Virus record (IMG/VR): IMGVR_UViG_3300013126_000026
Coordinates: 4,337-68,336 of that record
Source: a virus
DNA: 64,000 nucleotides
Reading direction: 5' to 3' (one strand)
Positions 4-46,632 of this stretch are shown here, piece after piece. The number at the start of each line of letters is the position of its first letter. Position 1 is the stretch's first letter. The translations under genes and the position numbers were made by a program. Below the pieces are notes generated by a model that did no database searches, had not been told where the DNA came from, and saw only the letters and a list, made by a program, of their open reading frames with translations.

Positions 4-32
4 ATTATACACCCATGTCCATTTATTGTCAA
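4..32 (-). promoter_or_regulatory. sigma70-type early promoter, TTGACA(ATAAAT)-N17-TATAAT
   Basis: Minus strand TTGACA 32-27, 17-nt spacer, TATAAT 9-4; the same motif recurs through the window. Confidence 0.75.
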
Positions 33-36148: not shown

Positions 36149-36224
36149 TGGTGCTGCATGTCGGATTCGAACTGACCACCTACTGATTACAAATCAGTTG
36201 CTCTACCAAATGAGCTAATGCAGC
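36149..36224 (-). tRNA. tRNA-Thr(TGT)
   Basis: Cloverleaf, loop TTTGTAA, CCA. Confidence 0.92.
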
Positions 36225-36271
36225 ATGAATTTATTTACACGTAGTATACACGTGTGTTTATTTTTTGTCAA

Positions 36272-42762: not shown

Positions 42763-42838
42763 TGGTACCTGGGACTGGACTCGAACCAGTATCGCTCTCC
42801 GTGTAAAGGAGACGTATCACCTCTCTACGCACCCAGGT
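42763..42838 (-). tRNA. tRNA-Val(TAC)
   Basis: Loop TTTACAC, CCA; overlaps the 3' end of def. Confidence 0.85.
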
Positions 42839-43260
42839 ATATATCTTTCATGCATAGTTATGCCATTTAAATGATCAAGTTCATGCTGAAAACAACGACT
42901 TGCTAAACCTGCTAACCATTCAATTGTTTCAACACCATATGCGTTATAATATTTAACTAGTATTTTGTTAGGTCTAGAAATTTCTAATCTTTCACCAGGA
43001 AAACTTAAACATCCTTCTGTATAGTACATATTATCATCAGTTTTTTCAAGTATAACTGGGTTAAAACAATGATATATCTTATCATTTACTAACATAACAA
43101 ATATTCTATTATCAACACCCACTTGATTACTAGCAAGTCCTATGCCATTTTCTTTAAGCATAGTTTGAAACAGTTCTTGTGCTAACTTTAAATTTTGTTT
43201 GGGTTTGTCAAATGTAACCTCAACACAAACATTTTTTAATATTGTATTATCTAACTTCAT
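42817..43260 (-). CDS. def: Peptide deformylase
   Basis: GIGLASNQ, EGCLS, QHELDHLNG. Confidence 0.95.
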   Translation of the reverse strand: MKLDNTILKNVCVEVTFDKPKQNLKLAQELFQTMLKENGIGLASNQVGVDNRIFVMLVNDKIYHCFNPVILEKTDDNMYYTEGCLSFPGERLEISRPNKILVKYYNAYGVETIEWLAGLASRCFQHELDHLNGITMHERYIPGCVER

Positions 43261-43278
43261 ACAGTATTTAATATGTGT

Positions 43279-43354
43279 TGGTGCCGCCTCTAGGAATCGA
43301 ACCTAGTTCCACGATTCTTCAGACCGTTGCTATAACCATATCAGCTAAAGCGGC
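43279..43354 (-). tRNA. tRNA-Phe(GAA)
   Basis: Loop CTGAAGA, CCA. Confidence 0.88.
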
Positions 43355-43359
43355 ATATT

Positions 43360-43435
43360 TGGGGAGATTGAAGGGAGTCGAACCCTCACTTTACAGAATC
43401 ACAACCTGCGGCACTACCTTTATGCTACAATCTCC
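43360..43435 (-). tRNA. tRNA-His(GTG)
   Basis: G-1:C73 pair, loop TTGTGAT, CCA. Confidence 0.88.
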
Positions 43436-43441
43436 GTTGAT

Positions 43442-43517
43442 TGGTGCCTGTTCTTGGGTTTGAACCAAGGACCTTTCGATTATCGGTCGAATGCTCTTCC
43501 AACTGAGCTAAACAGGC
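43442..43517 (-). tRNA. tRNA-Ile(GAT)
   Basis: Cloverleaf, loop CCGATAA with C33, CCA. Confidence 0.85.
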
Positions 43518-44086
43518 TAATCTATAACTGGACCGTTGCCATTGCGAAAACCAATAACACCGCCTTCACTTACAATTCTTTTACTAACTTCTTCAAATAA
43601 AATAGGTGCGTAATCAGTTTGTTCTACACAAACACAATGGTACTTGGTATCAATATCACCAGTTACTGTTTTTACACGCTGATAATGTAAATGTCCATGT
43701 ATATTCACTCCAAAGCGTCCAAGACTATCTGGATGTACTGGTACATGACTAAGTATCATACCATTCATAACATGATATCCACGAATATCCCTAAAGTATT
43801 TTGTATAATCTTCTAGTTTAAAAATATCGTGGTTACCACGAATAAGCACTTTATCACCGTTAAGTCTGCTGAGTATGTTAAGAAACTTACGGTTAATAAC
43901 AGCATCGCCCAGATGATATATTTTGTCCTTAGGTTTAACACGCTCGTTCCAACGTTTTACCATTTCTTCATCCATTTCTTCAACGGATGAAAAGGGTCTT
44001 AGAGGTGTTCCGTCATCTCGTTTAAAACTGGTACAGGTTTTTTCGTGACCAAAATGTGTGTCACTCACAAGCCATGTTGCTGGCAT
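43517..44086 (-). CDS. Calcineurin-like metallophosphoesterase
   Basis: SDTHFGH, LGD, GNHD, SH, HGHLH. Confidence 0.92.
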   Translation of the reverse strand: MPATWLVSDTHFGHEKTCTSFKRDDGTPLRPFSSVEEMDEEMVKRWNERVKPKDKIYHLGDAVINRKFLNILSRLNGDKVLIRGNHDIFKLEDYTKYFRDIRGYHVMNGMILSHVPVHPDSLGRFGVNIHGHLHYQRVKTVTGDIDTKYHCVCVEQTDYAPILFEEVSKRIVSEGGVIGFRNGNGPVID

Positions 44087-44095
44087 AATAAACTC

Positions 44096-44674
44096 CTAAA
44101 TATCGCAATAATTTTTATCGTCGGTAAACCACATAGCAATAGTGGCTCGTATCCCACTAGTAACTTGTTTTACCCCATGTTCTGACTTTTCATCACTAGA
44201 AAAAGCTAGTAATGATCCAACTTTTGGGCATGATACATAGTCATTGTTATCATTTATTTTAACAACTGTTTCACCGCCTATGTAATCATTATTTAAATAA
44301 ATGATTGCGGAATAGGTTCTCATACACAAAACTTTTTGTAATTCATCTGATTGACCAAAGCCATTATCAACATGTCTTATCATGTATTGACCCTCTTTCC
44401 ACAAGACTAAATCACAAAAATGCGGATAATGCTGTATATTGATTGACTTAGATATTATCTCAGCTACTTTATAATTTATAGTTTTGAGGTGATTTTTTAA
44501 ATAAAAATCATCAACATCATGATAATAAATATTATTTCCTATATGCCACGGCATATCTGAATTATCATTACAAACTTTATTTGTTTTATTATAAAGATAA
44601 GAAAAATAAATTTGACAAAAATCTTTATCTAAAAAATTGTCAACAGTAATTATGTATTCACCGATTCTTGTCAT
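44096..44674 (-). CDS. 2OG-Fe(II) oxygenase (P4H-like)
   Basis: HVD, YLNNDYIGGE, HGV..V.SG.R. Confidence 0.88.
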   Translation of the reverse strand: MTRIGEYIITVDNFLDKDFCQIYFSYLYNKTNKVCNDNSDMPWHIGNNIYYHDVDDFYLKNHLKTINYKVAEIISKSINIQHYPHFCDLVLWKEGQYMIRHVDNGFGQSDELQKVLCMRTYSAIIYLNNDYIGGETVVKINDNNDYVSCPKVGSLLAFSSDEKSEHGVKQVTSGIRATIAMWFTDDKNYCDI

Positions 44675-44695
44675 TAGATTATTTAATAAAAATAG

Positions 44696-44769
44696 CACCA
44701 CCGGCAGGATTCAAACCCACGACCCCTTAGTTCGTAGCCAAGTGCTCTATTCAACTGAGCTACGGTGGT
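44696..44769 (-). tRNA. tRNA-Arg(ACG), possibly decaying
   Basis: Loop CTACGAA; D-loop lacks GG, T-loop TTTGAAT, ends CTA instead of CCA. Confidence 0.7.
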
Positions 44770-44770
44770 A

Positions 44771-44917
44771 TTAATCTTCTCTAGTATAATTTAATACGTT
44801 GCCAACACCATATTGTGCTTCGCCAAGCAATTTTGCTTCATAATCATTACTAGCCCACACATAGGTATTAGCAGTTTGATAATCATTAATGCGTACCCAT
44901 AATTTATATTTGTACAT
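44771..44917 (-). CDS. Small hypothetical protein (48 aa, MYKYKLWVRIND...)
   Basis: Read manually; AAGGA SD; fills the gap between two tRNAs. Confidence 0.6.
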   Translation of the reverse strand: MYKYKLWVRINDYQTANTYVWASNDYEAKLLGEAQYGVGNVLNYTRED

Positions 44918-44930
44918 TTTATTTCCTTGT

Positions 44931-45005
44931 TGGTGCTGATAAGTGGATTTGAACCACTGACTTCCATCTTACCAAGATGGCGATCTACCTCTGATCTATA
45001 TCAGC
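44931..45005 (-). tRNA. tRNA-Thr(GGT)
   Basis: Loop TTGGTAA, CCA. Confidence 0.88.
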
Positions 45006-45349
45006 TATTTCTTTTTAGTTGAACTAGCTTTTTTCTTTGGATTTAAAATCTTATATTCTTCACTTTTCATAAATTCTTTACGCATATCGTCCAAACTTGC
45101 TACTGATAATACCCAATATTTGTATCCTTCGATATCAGGATCACGTCCTAATAATTCTTTAAACATATTACTTACGTGAAATGCTCTAACTACTAACGCT
45201 TCGTGGGATTTAGCAAATTCTTTACGAATTTCATCAATGGGTGTTGGTGTGCTTACCCACCAAGCTAATCCATCAACATCAGGTTCACGACCTAATAATG
45301 TACGATATAACTCACTGATTTGCTCTTGTCTATCTGAACTCATAATCAA
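45005..45349 (-). CDS. DUF4214-like repeat protein
   Basis: Two 'LLGR.PD..G..(W/Y)W...F.KS.E' repeats. Confidence 0.7.
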   Translation of the reverse strand: MIMSSDRQEQISELYRTLLGREPDVDGLAWWVSTPTPIDEIRKEFAKSHEALVVRAFHVSNMFKELLGRDPDIEGYKYWVLSVASLDDMRKEFMKSEEYKILNPKKKASSTKKK

Positions 45350-45418
45350 CTCCTAAAAATGTATTTAATGAAGTAAAATTATTTTAAACAGTAAGTACAT
45401 AACTAGTATATTAGCAAT

Positions 45419-45492
45419 TGGAGCGGGTAGAGAGAATCGAACTCTCACACTAACCTTGGCAAGGTCACAGGCTACCTTTACATCATACCCGC
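45419..45492 (-). tRNA. tRNA-Gly(GCC), second copy
   Basis: Loop TTGCCAA, CCA. Confidence 0.88.
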
Positions 45493-45536
45493 ATATATTT
45501 TATTTAACATACAACCATTTATATTAAATTTTTAAT

Positions 45537-45627
45537 TGGTGGAAGCGGTGAGATTCGAACTCACGGACCCTTGTAGGATCGTCTGATTTCAAGTCAGGTG
45601 CAATAAACCGTGCTCTGCCACACTTCC
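45537..45627 (-). tRNA. tRNA-Ser(TGA)
   Basis: Long variable arm, loop CTTGAAA, CCA. Confidence 0.92.
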
Positions 45628-45631
45628 ATAA

Positions 45632-45705
45632 TGGCAGGGGTACCAGGAATCGAACCTAGAGCAGTGGAATCAAAATCTACTGTGTTACCATTACACCATA
45701 CCCCA
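45632..45705 (-). tRNA. tRNA-Gln(TTG)
   Basis: Loop TTTTGAT, CCA. Confidence 0.9.
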
Positions 45706-45719
45706 ATTGATACTATTAG

Positions 45720-45908
45720 CCATATAGCATTCTAAAATATAAACACTTACACTTTAGAATGCTATAAGTTATCTTATAGCATACTGGAGTCATGCCCCAG
45801 TCAGTAGTCTTACTTTATGTGTTATCACCACAAATTTCATGTAATACTGTCCGCCCGTTCATAGCAAGTTTATAGTGCTGCTTATCGGCCCTCGTTGCCT
45901 ATTCACAC
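45720..45908 (-). ncRNA. Structured RNA between the attenuator and the first tRNA
   Basis: No ORF; hairpins ACTGGGG/CTCCAGT, CAGTA/TACTG, TATAGCATTCTAAA/TTTAGAATGCTATA. Confidence 0.5.
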
Positions 45909-45912
45909 TTAC

Positions 45913-45951
45913 AAAACAAAAACCCTGAGAACTTTTTACTTTTCCCAGGGT
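45913..45951 (-). terminator. Intrinsic terminator (attenuator hairpin)
   Basis: ACCCTGGGAA/TTCTCAGGGT stem followed by TTTTGTTTT. Confidence 0.75.
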
Positions 45952-45975
45952 CTTAAATAATCTTTACTATGACTA

Positions 45976-46101
45976 CTATGTACCCTGGTACTCCTTAATT
46001 GATGTGCCACGATTATCTACACAATACATTGGCGCAAAACTATCACTGGCTAAATACTGCCATGATTGTTGTCTCAACGATGTAGATATATGTTTATTCA
46101 T
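45976..46101 (-). CDS. Putative attenuator leader peptide, 41 aa, containing all 20 amino acids
   Basis: MNKHISTSLRQQSWQYLASDSFAPMYCVDNRGTSIKEYQGT; lies between promoter and terminator; stops TAG TAG. Confidence 0.7.
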   Translation of the reverse strand: MNKHISTSLRQQSWQYLASDSFAPMYCVDNRGTSIKEYQGT

Positions 46102-46140
46102 AGTGTTTTATTTATGCCTTGTAAAAAATAATATGTTGTT

Positions 46141-46169
46141 ATACTAACAAAACTCTAATTAATTGTCAA
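46141..46169 (-). promoter_or_regulatory. sigma70-type promoter of the leader/tRNA operon
   Basis: TTGACA-17-TAGTAT; CATAAATA late-like box just upstream of the leader ATG. Confidence 0.65.
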
Positions 46170-46185
46170 ATACATATTTACCCAA

Positions 46186-46632
46186 TTATTGTAACGACAT
46201 GTAACAGTATGCGTTACTATCTGAGGTTTCAGTGTTATGCCAATTACTAGCAAGTTTGAAGCCTACACTATTATATGTTTTCCAGCTATCTAATCTGGGC
46301 AAACTCCAAATAAATTTTGCTTTTTCAAGTTTTGCTTGTTTAATGGTAGCTTTAAGTAATGCTATACCTAATCCCAATCCTCTAAATTGTTTCTTTAAAT
46401 ATAATCCACGACTACGATATGAGCCATCAGCACAACGATGTCCACTATTAACACCCATTACTTTTCCGCCTAATACATATCCAAATAATGTAGGATTGTA
46501 TTTCATATTATCCATGTTGTAACCAGACAAAAAATTCATAGCACTAGTTGATTCTATTTTGCTTGTTCTTGTTGGCCATAATTCTTTAGACCAAATTTCG
46601 TAAATTTCTTCCCAAGTTATTTGTTGTATCAT
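46186..46632 (-). CDS. GNAT acetyltransferase
   Basis: FRGLGLG...Y...GF. Confidence 0.82.
   Translation of the reverse strand: MIQQITWEEIYEIWSKELWPTRTSKIESTSAMNFLSGYNMDNMKYNPTLFGYVLGGKVMGVNSGHRCADGSYRSRGLYLKKQFRGLGLGIALLKATIKQAKLEKAKFIWSLPRLDSWKTYNSVGFKLASNWHNTETSDSNAYCYMSLQ

What the first reader, a model, noticed from the sequence alone, without database searches (positions are those of the whole stretch)
45913..46169. Candidate pan-amino-acid (all-20) ribosome-sensing attenuator heading the phage tRNA array
Seen on the minus strand: promoter TTGACA-17-TAGTAT (46169-46141), then an unannotated 41-codon ORF (46101-45976, MNKHISTSLRQQSWQYLASDSFAPMYCVDNRGTSIKEYQGT). It contains every one of the 20 amino acids and 31 different codons, including four Ser codons, AGA+CGT, ATA+ATT, TTA+TTG, AAA+AAG and CAA+CAG. 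Next comes an intrinsic terminator (ACCCUGGGAA/UUCUCAGGGU plus U tract), then ncRNA and tRNA genes. The leader's last codons carry CCAGGGU (45988-45982), an exact complement of the terminator's 5' arm ACCCUGG (45951-45945). Known: trp/his/leu attenuators use this geometry with runs of one amino acid. Inference: a ribosome reaching the stop covers CCAGGGU and the terminator forms. A stall at an upstream codon frees it, allowing read-through into an array that itself covers all 20 amino acids. That would be a general sensor of tRNA loss, for example from host anticodon nucleases (PrrC, RloC, PARIS AriB, retron PtuAB) or starvation, inducing replacement tRNAs on demand. Caveats: Glu occurs only near the 3' end where a stall may still mask the antiterminator, there is no strong SD, and internal promoters plus a terminator at about 37.7 kb mean it may directly control only the first tRNA block.
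Basis: partly seen in the sequence, partly recalled or inferred. Interest (0 to 1): 0.92.

Follow-up and report, generated by a model that had tools for sequence, protein, structure and literature searches.

The report
All-amino-acid leader switch before phage tRNAs
An uncultured giant phage starts its tRNA gene cluster with a tiny translated gene that is kept stocked with all 20 amino acids and that ends inside an RNA hairpin competing with a transcription stop signal, so it probably lets transcription run on into the tRNA genes whenever ribosomes decode poorly.

Summary
All of these are in the window at the stated coordinates: a sigma-70-type promoter, a 41-codon ORF with all 20 amino acids, a hairpin plus T tract, and CCAGGGU complementary to the terminator's 5' arm.

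Comparison makes it much stronger.
- The ORF belongs to a family of 89 distinct peptides (41-51 aa) from uncultured giant phages. 71 have all 20 amino-acid types, 16 have 19 and 2 have 18. Chance gives 1-7%.
- A randomisation that keeps the tree and the substituted sites never reaches the observed numbers.
- In 46 of 51 loci a same-strand tRNA array follows. The other 5 are cut short.
- Both the terminator and a three-tier antiterminator that contains the stop codon show compensatory changes.
- The last six codons almost never supply a new amino-acid type.

Best reading, at 0.6: a ribosome-mediated transcription attenuator that gauges overall decoding.

Caveats:
- Nothing is shown experimentally.
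- The peptide core is itself conserved.
- 39 of 50 relatives carry a second promoter behind the terminator. The window does not.
- 5 of 50 lack a good U tract.
- The window's only Glu lies in the masked zone.
- ARAGORN finds tRNAs for 18 amino acids, not 20.

The closest known system is the mycobacterial whiB7 uORF. This scan had already noted the same family on other DNA. I found no published description.

The parts
46141..46169 (-). P1, a sigma-70-type promoter: TTGACA-17-TAGTAT with TG before the -10
   Evidence: A TTGAC(A/T/G)-16..18-TAnnnT site lies at the equivalent place in 49 of 50 loci that have 170 nt upstream; only L007 lacks it.
46102..46134 (-). 5' UTR with the conserved motif AGGCATAAATAAA (46119-46107) and ACTATG at the start codon. 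There is no Shine-Dalgarno sequence at normal spacing.
   Evidence: AGG-NN-TAAATAAA..ACTATG is conserved across lineages. The start of the UTR is estimated from the -10 hexamer.
45976..46101 (-). Leader ORF: 41 codons plus TAG, containing all 20 amino-acid types
   Evidence: It belongs to a family of 89 distinct peptides. pN/pS is below 1, and length differences between members are in whole codons.
45945..45988 (-). Antiterminator hairpin. Outer stem: CCAGGGU (45988-45982) with ACCCUGG (45951-45945). Inner stem: AGUAGUC (45977-45971, holding the AG of the stop codon) with GAUUAUU (45962-45956).
   Evidence: -19.3 kcal/mol, z = -4.87, and 0 of 200 shuffles fold as well. The same architecture appears in 10 of 10 lineage representatives. 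Covariation is shown.
45913..45954 (-). Intrinsic terminator: 5' arm AAGACCCUGGGAA, 10-nt loop, 3' arm UUCUCAGGGUUUU, then U5-G-U4. It shares ACCCUGG with the antiterminator.
   Evidence: (-14.6 kcal/mol). In alignment A7, 96.1% of cells are paired and 4 of 11 pairs show changes on both sides.
45706..45910 (-). Conserved structured RNA of unknown family, the first thing transcribed after the terminator
   Evidence: It is conserved in all lineages, with hairpins that covary. There is no Rfam match at E up to 1 in the window or in 5 relatives.
42763..45705 (-). First block of the tRNA array (Gln, Ser, Gly, Thr, Arg, Ile, His, Phe, Val), interleaved with small protein genes
   Evidence: No sigma-70-type promoter was found within 230 nt behind the terminator in the window.

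Best explanation
This is a ribosome-mediated transcription attenuator whose leader ORF works as a gauge of overall decoding capacity.

Proposed steps:
1. Host RNA polymerase starts at P1.
2. The 41-codon leader is translated.
3. As the polymerase moves on, the last codons (CCAGGGU), the stop-codon region and the spacer fold with ACCCUGG into a three-tier antiterminator hairpin.
4. If the leading ribosome keeps pace and enters the last ~6 codons, it melts the 5' half of that hairpin. ACCCUGG then pairs with the 3' arm, the terminator forms and the transcript ends at the U tract.
5. If the ribosome lags at any earlier codon, the antiterminator persists. The polymerase then reads through into the conserved RNA and the tRNA genes, and in most relatives also into a small protein gene, ORF2.

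Because the leader carries every amino-acid type ahead of the masked zone, shortage of almost any charged tRNA would be reported.

Shown here by computation: the anatomy, its conservation, covariation of both helices, selection for compositional completeness, and the linkage to tRNA arrays. Inferred only: translation of the ORF, termination, and any response to starvation or tRNA loss.
For: 1. Compositional completeness is a conserved and selected trait.
- 47 of 51 loci encode an all-20 peptide.
- Of 89 distinct full-length peptides of 41-51 aa, 71 have 20 types, 16 have 19 and 2 have 18.
- Of 30 cluster representatives at 50% identity or less, 22 have 20, 6 have 19 and 2 have 18.
- The chance of all 20 is 0.014 at 41 aa, 0.028 at 45 aa and 0.066 at 51 aa.
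- Only 1 of 240 other ORFs of this size in the same loci has all 20.
- I ran a randomisation that keeps the tree, the sites and the number of substitutions but redraws the target residues. On 50 peptides it gave a mean of 22 with all 20 (maximum 37 in 2000 runs), against 41 observed. On 89 peptides it gave a mean of 5.9 against 71 observed; for 19 or more types it gave 28.9 (maximum 67) against 87 observed.
- Singleton types move between columns in different lineages. Cys sits in column 6, 30 or 13; His in 12 or 5; Glu in seven different columns.

2. The leader heads a tRNA array.
- A same-strand tRNA array starts 250-1170 nt downstream in 46 of 51 loci. The other 5 have 616 nt or less of downstream sequence.

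3. Two mutually exclusive helices are both supported.
- All 50 loci with enough sequence have the hairpin and a 6-8 nt complement of its 5' arm in the last codons.
- There are compensatory changes: CTCGGGG with CCCTGAG (L051/L054, L053), CCGGGG with CCCCGG (L049), CGGGGGCT with AGCCCCTG (L007) and CCAGGGT with ACCCTGG (the window).
- On a covariance-model alignment of 40 loci, the antiterminator has 89.4% of cells paired and 8 of 19 pairs changed on both sides. Its covariation score is 0.123, against 0.048 or less with slid partners.
- The terminator has 96.1% of cells paired and 4 of 11 pairs changed on both sides. Its score is 0.165, against 0.100 or less slid.
- The motif CCGGGG is kept even where it is read in another frame..PRGTE and ..YRGTE against ..GPGTR.
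- The antiterminator segment folds the same way in 10 of 10 lineages, with z from -2.0 to -4.9.

4. The last codons behave like a masked zone.
- The last residue that adds a new amino-acid type lies 7 or more codons from the end in 86 of 89 peptides. With the residue order shuffled, a mean of 61 of 89 peptides would have one in the last 6.

5. The ORF is probably translated.
- pN/pS is 0.33 in the N-terminal part, 0.21 in the core and 0.74 in the tail.
- Length differences between members are in whole codons.

6. ORF2 appears to need read-through.
- ORF2 is present in 42 of 51 loci. No promoter lies between the terminator and its ribosome-binding site, so its expression appears to depend on read-through.
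Against: - No experiment or usable expression data exists. Only assembled contigs were on hand.
- The peptide is conserved in sequence, not just in composition. A pure composition sensor does not explain this.
- A consensus promoter (TTGACA-17/18-TAnAAT) lies just behind the terminator in 39 of 50 relatives. There the tRNAs could be made regardless of the switch. It is absent in the window, L016, L011, L064, L007, L051, L054, L033-35 and L039.
- 5 of 50 loci have a poor U tract or none: L011, L064, L057, L058 and L059.
- No upstream 'protector' hairpin of the trp type (1:2) was seen, so an untranslated leader would read through.
- The window's only Glu lies 5 codons from the stop, where a stalled ribosome would cover part of CCAGGGU.
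- The leader's codons match the phage's own tRNAs no better than other genes do: 33 of 41 against 75%.
- Synonymous codon diversity is only mildly raised.
- The covariation counts were made on an alignment fitted to the antiterminator structure.
- In the 89-peptide randomisation the reconstructed root had 19 types. This lowers the simulated all-20 counts.
Confidence: 0.6

Rival explanations
1. It is a stand-alone early gene for a small (41-51 aa) trans-acting protein, with its own promoter and terminator. The tRNA operon is transcribed from its own promoter, and the neighbourhood is only synteny.
For: - The peptide core SF[VA]P[AV]YPTSIRG and the tail GPGTR are conserved, with pN/pS of 0.21-0.33.
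- 39 of 50 relatives show the ordinary layout gene, terminator, promoter.
Against: - It does not explain why all 20 amino-acid types are kept while their positions move.
- It does not explain why the last six codons add no new type.
- It does not explain why a hairpin that excludes the terminator, and contains the stop codon, covaries.
- The window, L016, L011, L064, L051 and L054 have no second promoter.
- There is no match to any Pfam or PHROG family, and no usable look-alike in the protein atlas.
Confidence: 0.15
2. It is a sequence-specific arrest-peptide sensor of the TnaC, SecM or SpeFL kind. The conserved nascent core interacts with the ribosome exit tunnel and stalls translation in response to one particular ligand or condition. 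The stall position then sets terminator against antiterminator.
For: - The core is conserved with an invariant Pro and Tyr, while codons vary between lineages (CCA, CCG and CCC for Pro).
- The core lies 12-24 residues before the stop, which would place it in the exit tunnel when the ribosome reaches the end. That geometry rests on recalled knowledge of exit-tunnel length.
Against: - It does not explain compositional completeness or the moving singleton residues.
- The divergent members, namely the window, L007 and P0058, change most of the core yet keep all 20 types.
- No known arrest motif was identified. The resemblance of IRG to SecM is from recall only.
Confidence: 0.1
3. The two alternative hairpins act after transcription. 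They could be a processing or stability site that separates the leader from the tRNA precursor, or a control of translation termination or mRNA decay, rather than a switch for RNA polymerase.
For: - 5 of 50 loci keep the hairpin but lack a proper U tract.
- tRNA precursors are processed by nucleases, which is established knowledge.
- In most full-length sequences the terminator state is the minimum-energy fold whatever happens.
Against: - 45 of 50 loci have a canonical GC-rich stem followed by a U run.
- This reading gives no reason for the all-20 content or for the pattern in the last six codons.
Confidence: 0.1

Closest known systems
[quoted passage not shown]
   Same: Both have a translated upstream ORF followed by antiterminator and terminator structures, and stalling anywhere in the uORF gives read-through. 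[quoted passage not shown] Genes for 18 of 20 amino acids activate it. Removing Trp or His from the uORF greatly reduces (Trp) or abolishes (His) the response to starvation for that amino acid. So a leader that senses many amino acids is an established principle.
   Different: There is no sequence relationship. whiB7 is a bacterial chromosomal gene for a transcription factor, not a phage tRNA array. According to that paper, the whiB7 uORF varies widely, is enriched in Ala, and in M. tuberculosis lacks several amino acids. Here completeness itself is kept (71 of 89 with all 20, 87 of 89 with 19 or more), in only 41-51 codons.
Leader-peptide attenuators of enterobacterial amino-acid operons (trpL, hisL, leuL, pheL, thrL, ilvL); recalled textbook knowledge
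   Same: Both have a short translated leader, an intrinsic terminator and an antiterminator whose 5' strand lies where a ribosome finishing the leader would cover it. In both, a slow ribosome gives read-through.
   Different: Those leaders carry runs of one to three regulatory amino acids, have 14-32 codons and have a 1:2 pause or protector hairpin, and they control biosynthetic enzymes. This leader has each amino acid once or a few times and no 1:2 hairpin was found. Its antiterminator has three tiers and includes the stop codon, and it precedes RNA genes. No Rfam leader family matches it.
T-box riboswitches; recalled knowledge
   Same: The logic is the same: poor tRNA charging leads to antitermination of genes for the translation apparatus.
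   Different: A T-box binds one specific uncharged tRNA directly and needs no translation. There is no Rfam T-box match here.
Leaders that sense general translation stress (ermCL-type and similar antibiotic-responsive uORFs); recalled, not read here
   Same: A stalled ribosome in a short ORF changes downstream RNA folding.
   Different: Those respond to drugs through specific nascent-peptide and drug contacts. Most act on translation or on Rho, not through a complete set of amino acids.

Membership tests
Ribosome-mediated (leader-peptide) transcription attenuator | A short ORF in the 5' leader that is translated | tested here: inconclusive
   The ORF is kept open in 51 of 51 loci. pN/pS is 0.21-0.74, and length differences are in whole codons. 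There is no Shine-Dalgarno sequence at normal spacing. No ribosome-profiling or proteomic data are available.
Ribosome-mediated (leader-peptide) transcription attenuator | An intrinsic terminator between the leader ORF and the controlled genes | tested here: met
   In the window: a 13-pair stem with a G-U pair, -14.6 kcal/mol, followed by U5-G-U4. Among relatives, 45 of 50 loci have a stem plus U run and 5 of 50 have a stem only. Compensatory changes are shown.
Ribosome-mediated (leader-peptide) transcription attenuator | An antiterminator that excludes the terminator and whose 5' strand lies in the last codons | tested here: met
   The pairing is found in 50 of 50 loci, 8 of 19 pairs change on both sides, and z is -2.0 to -4.9 in 10 of 10 lineages.
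Ribosome-mediated (leader-peptide) transcription attenuator | Regulatory codons that match the signal being sensed | tested here: met
   This is met in an unusual form. All 20 types are kept, beyond what phylogeny predicts, and they are placed ahead of the last six codons in 86 of 89 peptides.
Ribosome-mediated (leader-peptide) transcription attenuator | An upstream 1:2 pause or protector hairpin, as in trp | tested here: not met
   Whole-leader folds show no partner for CCNGGGG upstream. An internal ORF hairpin (TGGCTAAC/GTTAGCCA in relatives) exists but does not pair with region 2. This hairpin is a feature of the trp type, not of all leader attenuators.
Ribosome-mediated (leader-peptide) transcription attenuator | Read-through rises when decoding is slowed | not testable with these tools
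   This needs a reporter or a coupled in vitro system. The public runs that hold the region are assembled contigs only.
whiB7/wblC uORF attenuator family | Homology, or the same genomic context (upstream of a WhiB-like regulator in Actinobacteria) | tested here: not met
   The context here is a phage tRNA array. The peptide family has no Pfam or PHROG match. The two are analogous, not related.
Rfam leader, T-box and riboswitch families | A match to a curated covariance model | tested here: not met
   Over the leader region, nothing matches at E up to 1 in the window (24000-48000) or in 5 relatives; elsewhere only tRNA and chance hits appear.

The most novel reading that the evidence does not exclude
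Giant phages carry a cis-acting gauge of the whole aminoacyl-tRNA pool. It is a minimal ORF that selection keeps complete for all 20 amino acids. It turns any decoding failure, such as tRNA cleavage by host anticodon nucleases or host shut-off of charging, into read-through transcription of the phage's own replacement tRNAs, a conserved structured RNA and a small protein (ORF2). In effect it would be a viral, RNA-encoded counterpart of the stringent-response sensor.
Probability: 0.3. Interest if true: 0.9.

Novelty: new variant of a known kind. Interest (0 to 1): 0.85.

Why it matters
Why phages carry tRNA arrays, and how those arrays are controlled, is a long-standing question. This element would give the arrays an input signal: the state of translation itself.

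It would also be the first leader peptide in which completeness for all 20 amino acids, rather than a run of one amino acid, is the selected trait. It is compact enough (about 190 nt from promoter to terminator) to test directly. A coupled transcription-translation system, leaving out one amino acid or tRNA at a time, would do.

If the reading is right, the element is also a ready-made general reporter of decoding stress.

My six literature searches found no description of such a leader before phage tRNA genes. Subscription-only papers and supplementary files were not searchable.

Tried and rejected
Relatives among cultured phages.
- blastn of the region found only tRNA matches.
- tblastn of the window's peptide gave only chance hits, with E of 4 or more.
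- tblastn of a main-group peptide gave none.
- The upstream GNAT gene has one relative, at 42% identity, in a Ralstonia jumbo phage.

Relatives through neighbouring genes.
- The GNAT protein gave no locus.
- The DUF4214 protein gave two contigs that both begin 9 nt before the RNA motif, so they lack the leader.

An exact pattern of the window's two terminator arms found nothing in viral contigs.

A promoter for the structured RNA. CACTATAAA and AGGNNTAAATAAA are not repeated motifs in the window. CACTATAAA is not conserved in the T-type relatives. I therefore dropped the idea of a phage-specific promoter there.

Codon match to the phage's own tRNAs showed no signal: 33 of 41 leader codons against 75% in long ORFs.

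Protein atlas: no usable look-alike.

Expression.
- The one search for sequencing runs gave 24 runs, all kept as assembled contigs.
- I laid four of them.
- The one run on record as RNA has a 328-nt contig over tRNA-Gln plus the structured RNA (45632-45882) and no contig over the leader.
- Contigs cannot show levels or ends, and DNA may be present in that library, so this says nothing either way.

The whole-leader RNAalifold gave, apart from the terminator, long-range pairs that I do not trust.

The second randomisation started from a reconstructed root with 19 types, so its all-20 figure is biased low. The 19-or-more figure and the first randomisation do not share that problem.
Full report
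WHAT IS IN THE WINDOW

The following is read on the minus strand.
- A sigma-70-type promoter, TTGACA-17-TAGTAT with a TG before the -10, lies at 46169-46141.
- It is followed by a 41-codon ORF at 46101-45976.
- After a 21-nt spacer comes a hairpin (AAGACCCUGGGAA, 10-nt loop, UUCUCAGGGUUUU) with a U5-G-U4 tail at 45954-45913.
- Next come about 200 nt of RNA with no Rfam match, then tRNA-Gln at 45705 and the rest of a tRNA array.
- The ORF has all 20 amino-acid types and 31 distinct codons.
- CCAGGGU in its last codons (45988-45982) is the exact complement of ACCCUGG in the terminator's 5' arm (45951-45945).

One detail does not hold. ARAGORN and Rfam each find 26 tRNAs in the window, for 18 amino acids, with none for Asn or Tyr.

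The window is part of a 68-kb virus record that CheckV rates about 20% complete, so this is a giant phage.

IS THE WINDOW'S ORF ALONE MORE THAN CHANCE?

Only mildly.
- A 41-codon ORF drawn from the window's codon usage has all 20 types with P = 0.010.
- Promoter-like sites are as common as in shuffled sequence.
- The number of distinct codons is ordinary once the peptide sequence is given (P = 0.21).

The case rests on relatives.

RELATIVES

A 16-nt motif of the downstream RNA led to related viral and metagenome contigs. In those, the small ORF is conserved as a peptide.

A profile search of 5.8 billion proteins gave 35 small proteins. An HMM search of 1.84 billion cluster representatives gave 30.

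Two scans of viral contigs with peptide patterns gave 28 and 19 loci. Some of these contigs are 348-524 kb long.

No cultured phage in the GenBank phage collection has the family. It matches no Pfam or PHROG family.

COMPLETENESS IS THE CONSERVED TRAIT
- 47 of 51 loci encode a peptide with all 20 types.
- After trimming calls that start too far upstream and dropping four N-terminally truncated calls, there are 89 distinct peptides of 41-51 aa. Of these, 71 have 20 types, 16 have 19 and 2 have 18.
- Among the 30 representatives of clusters at 50% identity or less, the figures are 22, 6 and 2.
- Random peptides with the composition of these phages reach 20 types with P = 0.014 to 0.066, depending on length.
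- Of 240 other ORFs of this size in the same loci, 1 reaches 20 types.

Relatives inherit composition, so I built a tree and mapped substitutions by parsimony. I then redrew only the target residues, either from BLOSUM62-conditional frequencies or from background frequencies.
- With 50 peptides and an all-20 root, the simulations gave a mean of 22 all-20 tips (maximum 37 in 2000), against 41 observed. None kept all tips at 19 or more, as observed.
- With 89 peptides the simulations gave 5.9 all-20 tips against 71 observed. For 19 or more types they gave 28.9 (maximum 67) against 87. In that run the reconstructed root had 19 types, which biases the first figure low.

The singleton types move about between lineages. 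Cys is in alignment column 6 in the main group, 30 in the window and 13 in the L007 group. His is in column 12 or 5. Glu occupies seven different columns.

The types that are missing in some members are Cys (most often), Asp, Val, His and Phe.

THE RNA SWITCH

When the 3' arm of the terminator is left out, every lineage folds into the same three-tier hairpin:
- an outer stem of 6-8 pairs between the last codons (CCNGGGG) and the terminator's 5' arm (CCCUGGG);
- a middle stem made of the stop-codon region and the spacer;
- a small apical stem.

This fold gives -15.7 to -23.3 kcal/mol, with z from -2.0 to -4.9 in 10 of 10 representatives. The window gives -19.3 kcal/mol and z = -4.87.

The middle stems differ in sequence between lineages but keep their pairing.

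All 50 loci with enough sequence have both the hairpin and the complement. The compensatory changes are clear: CTCGGGG with CCCTGAG in L051/L054 and in L053, CCGGGG with CCCCGG in L049, CGGGGGCT with AGCCCCTG in L007, and CCAGGGT or CCGGGGT with ACCCTGG in the window and L016.

I also made a covariance-model alignment of 40 loci.
- The antiterminator has 89.4% of cells paired and 8 of 19 pairs changed on both sides. Its covariation score is 0.123, against 0.048 or less when partners are slid.
- The terminator has 96.1% of cells paired and 4 of 11 pairs changed on both sides. Its score is 0.165, against 0.100 or less slid.
- That alignment was fitted to the antiterminator, so the first set of numbers leans towards it.

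CCGGGG is kept even where it is read in a different frame..TPRGTE and ..GYRGTE against ..GPGTR. This points to a constraint at the RNA level.

In most full-length sequences the terminator state is the minimum-energy fold. The antiterminator would therefore act kinetically, because it is transcribed first.

THE LAST SIX CODONS

A ribosome near the stop would cover the 5' strand of the antiterminator, so stalls in the last few codons could not be reported.

In 86 of 89 peptides, the last residue that adds a new amino-acid type lies 7 or more codons from the end: -7 in 31 peptides, -8 in 15 and -9 in 26. With residue order shuffled, a mean of 61 of 89 peptides would have such a residue in the last six.

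In the main group, region 2 starts 14 nt before the stop. From memory, the ribosome unwinds mRNA up to about +11 from the P site. On that figure, a stall with codon -7 in the A site would leave six of the seven outer pairs free.

Two caveats apply. The conserved tail GPGTR is inherited, so this is not 89 independent trials. And the window itself is one of the three exceptions, with its only Glu at -5.

LINKAGE TO tRNA GENES

A same-strand tRNA array begins 250-1170 nt after the stop in 46 of 51 loci. The other five have 616 nt or less of downstream sequence. Within the upstream flank held, only one locus has a tRNA (L007).

Between the terminator and the first tRNA, every lineage has the conserved structured RNA. 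In addition, 42 of 51 loci have a small protein gene, ORF2 (48-55 aa, pN/pS 0.61, no family match).

WHAT COUNTS AGAINST A SIMPLE STORY
- The peptide is conserved in sequence (core SF[VA]P[AV]YPTSIRG, with invariant Pro and Tyr, and pN/pS of 0.21 in the core).
- A consensus promoter, TTGACA-17/18-TAnAAT, lies just behind the terminator in 39 of 50 relatives and overlaps the start of ORF2. In those phages the tRNAs can probably be made without read-through, and only ORF2 would depend on it.
- The window, L016, L011, L064, L007, L051, L054, L033-35 and L039 lack that promoter.
- Five of 50 loci have no good U tract.
- No trp-like 1:2 hairpin was found.
- The leader's codons are read by the window's own tRNAs no more often than codons of other genes.
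- No expression data could be had.

MECHANISM PROPOSED
1. Transcription starts at P1, and the leader is translated.
2. If the ribosome keeps pace and reaches the last codons, it melts the antiterminator. The terminator then forms and the transcript ends.
3. If the ribosome is slowed at any earlier codon, the antiterminator persists. The polymerase then continues into the structured RNA and the tRNA genes, and in relatives into ORF2.

Anatomy, conservation, covariation and selection for completeness are shown by computation. Translation, termination and the response itself are inferred.

I put this at 0.6. The rivals are:
- a stand-alone small-protein gene (0.15);
- a sequence-specific arrest peptide (0.1);
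- a post-transcriptional processing or stability element (0.1).

COMPARISON WITH WHAT IS KNOWN

The closest known system is the whiB7 uORF attenuator of mycobacteria. In M. smegmatis the uORF has every amino acid but Cys, genes for 18 of 20 amino acids activate it, and removing Trp or His greatly reduces or abolishes that one response (PMC10274678; abstract and one results section read). So sensing many amino acids through one leader is known.

What is new here is that completeness itself is the conserved trait, packed into 41-51 codons. The element is also viral, and it sits before tRNA genes.

It works like the trp, his and leu attenuators, but it matches none of the curated leader families and lacks their 1:2 hairpin.

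Six full-text searches found no description of such a leader before phage tRNA genes.

EARLIER NOTES OF THIS SCAN

Earlier notes of this scan describe look-alikes of this leader in 7 windows of 4 genomes. Their follow-ups reached much the same reading, and one of them gave me the whiB7 lead. Those are unchecked AI notes. I had made my own tests before seeing them and do not count them as support.

VERDICT

This is a new variant of a known kind. Interest is high.

Noticed in passing
window 45706-45910 (-), and the equivalent stretch in L007, L010, L011, L013, L014, L016 and the T-type loci: A conserved structured RNA of about 200-330 nt lies between the terminator (or ORF2) and the first tRNA. 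Conserved blocks are GUGAAUAGGCAACGAGRGCC, AAUGGGCGGACAG or AUGAACGGGCGGACAG, and GUAAGACUACUGG. It has hairpins that covary and a closing stem AUUCUAAAACA..UGUUUUAGAAU. There is no Rfam match at E up to 1.
   Followed up: partly
relatives, 69-99 nt after the leader's stop codon (for example L018, L038, L046-L063): A second consensus promoter, TTGACA-17/18-TA(C/G/A)AAT, lies directly behind the terminator in 39 of 50 loci. Its -35 hexamer sits between ORF2's ribosome-binding site and its ATG, and its -10 sits in codons 5-7 of ORF2. It is absent from the window.
   Followed up: partly
relatives, between the terminator and the structured RNA (42 of 51 loci); absent from the window: ORF2 is a conserved small protein of 48-55 aa with the motif W..H.L[TS].EQ...LI..K..RA. 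It is probably helical, has no Pfam or PHROG family, and has pN/pS of 0.61 among 12 T-type copies.
   Followed up: partly
relatives, 5' UTR of the leader (alignment): There is a 5' UTR hairpin with covariation: GTGTAAA/TTTACAC, GTGCAAA/TTTGCAC and ACATC/GATGT. It is followed by the conserved AACCAGGACTAAATAAAAGACTATG. The window keeps only AGGCATAAATAAA..ACTATG.
   Followed up: no
L008 and L012 (the same contigs as L004 and L003): Two different contigs from one metagenome both begin exactly 9 nt before the RNA motif, just downstream of where the terminator would be. This could be an assembly break at a shared or variable sequence, or a real end.
   Followed up: no
window 46186-46632 (-): The gene just upstream of the leader is a GNAT acetyltransferase (PF00583, E = 1.1e-6). 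It is also present upstream in the close relative L016. Its only relative among cultured phages is in a 344-kb Ralstonia jumbo phage, at 42% identity.
   Followed up: no
window 36243-36271 (-): The second tRNA block (tRNA-Thr at 36224) has its own promoter, TTGACA-17-TATACT (11 of 12 matches). This is the same hexamer pair as P1 of most relatives, and no leader ORF lies between it and the tRNA.
   Followed up: no
window 24977-45705 (-): ARAGORN and Rfam agree on 26 tRNAs for 18 amino acids, with no tRNA-Asn or tRNA-Tyr detected. Three tRNAs have the anticodon CAU.
   Followed up: no
relatives, inside the leader ORF at the codons W-L-T-L-A: There is an inverted repeat TGGCTAAC/GTTAGCCA (TGGC..GCCA in the window) within the coding region. 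It might be a pause or folding element.
   Followed up: no
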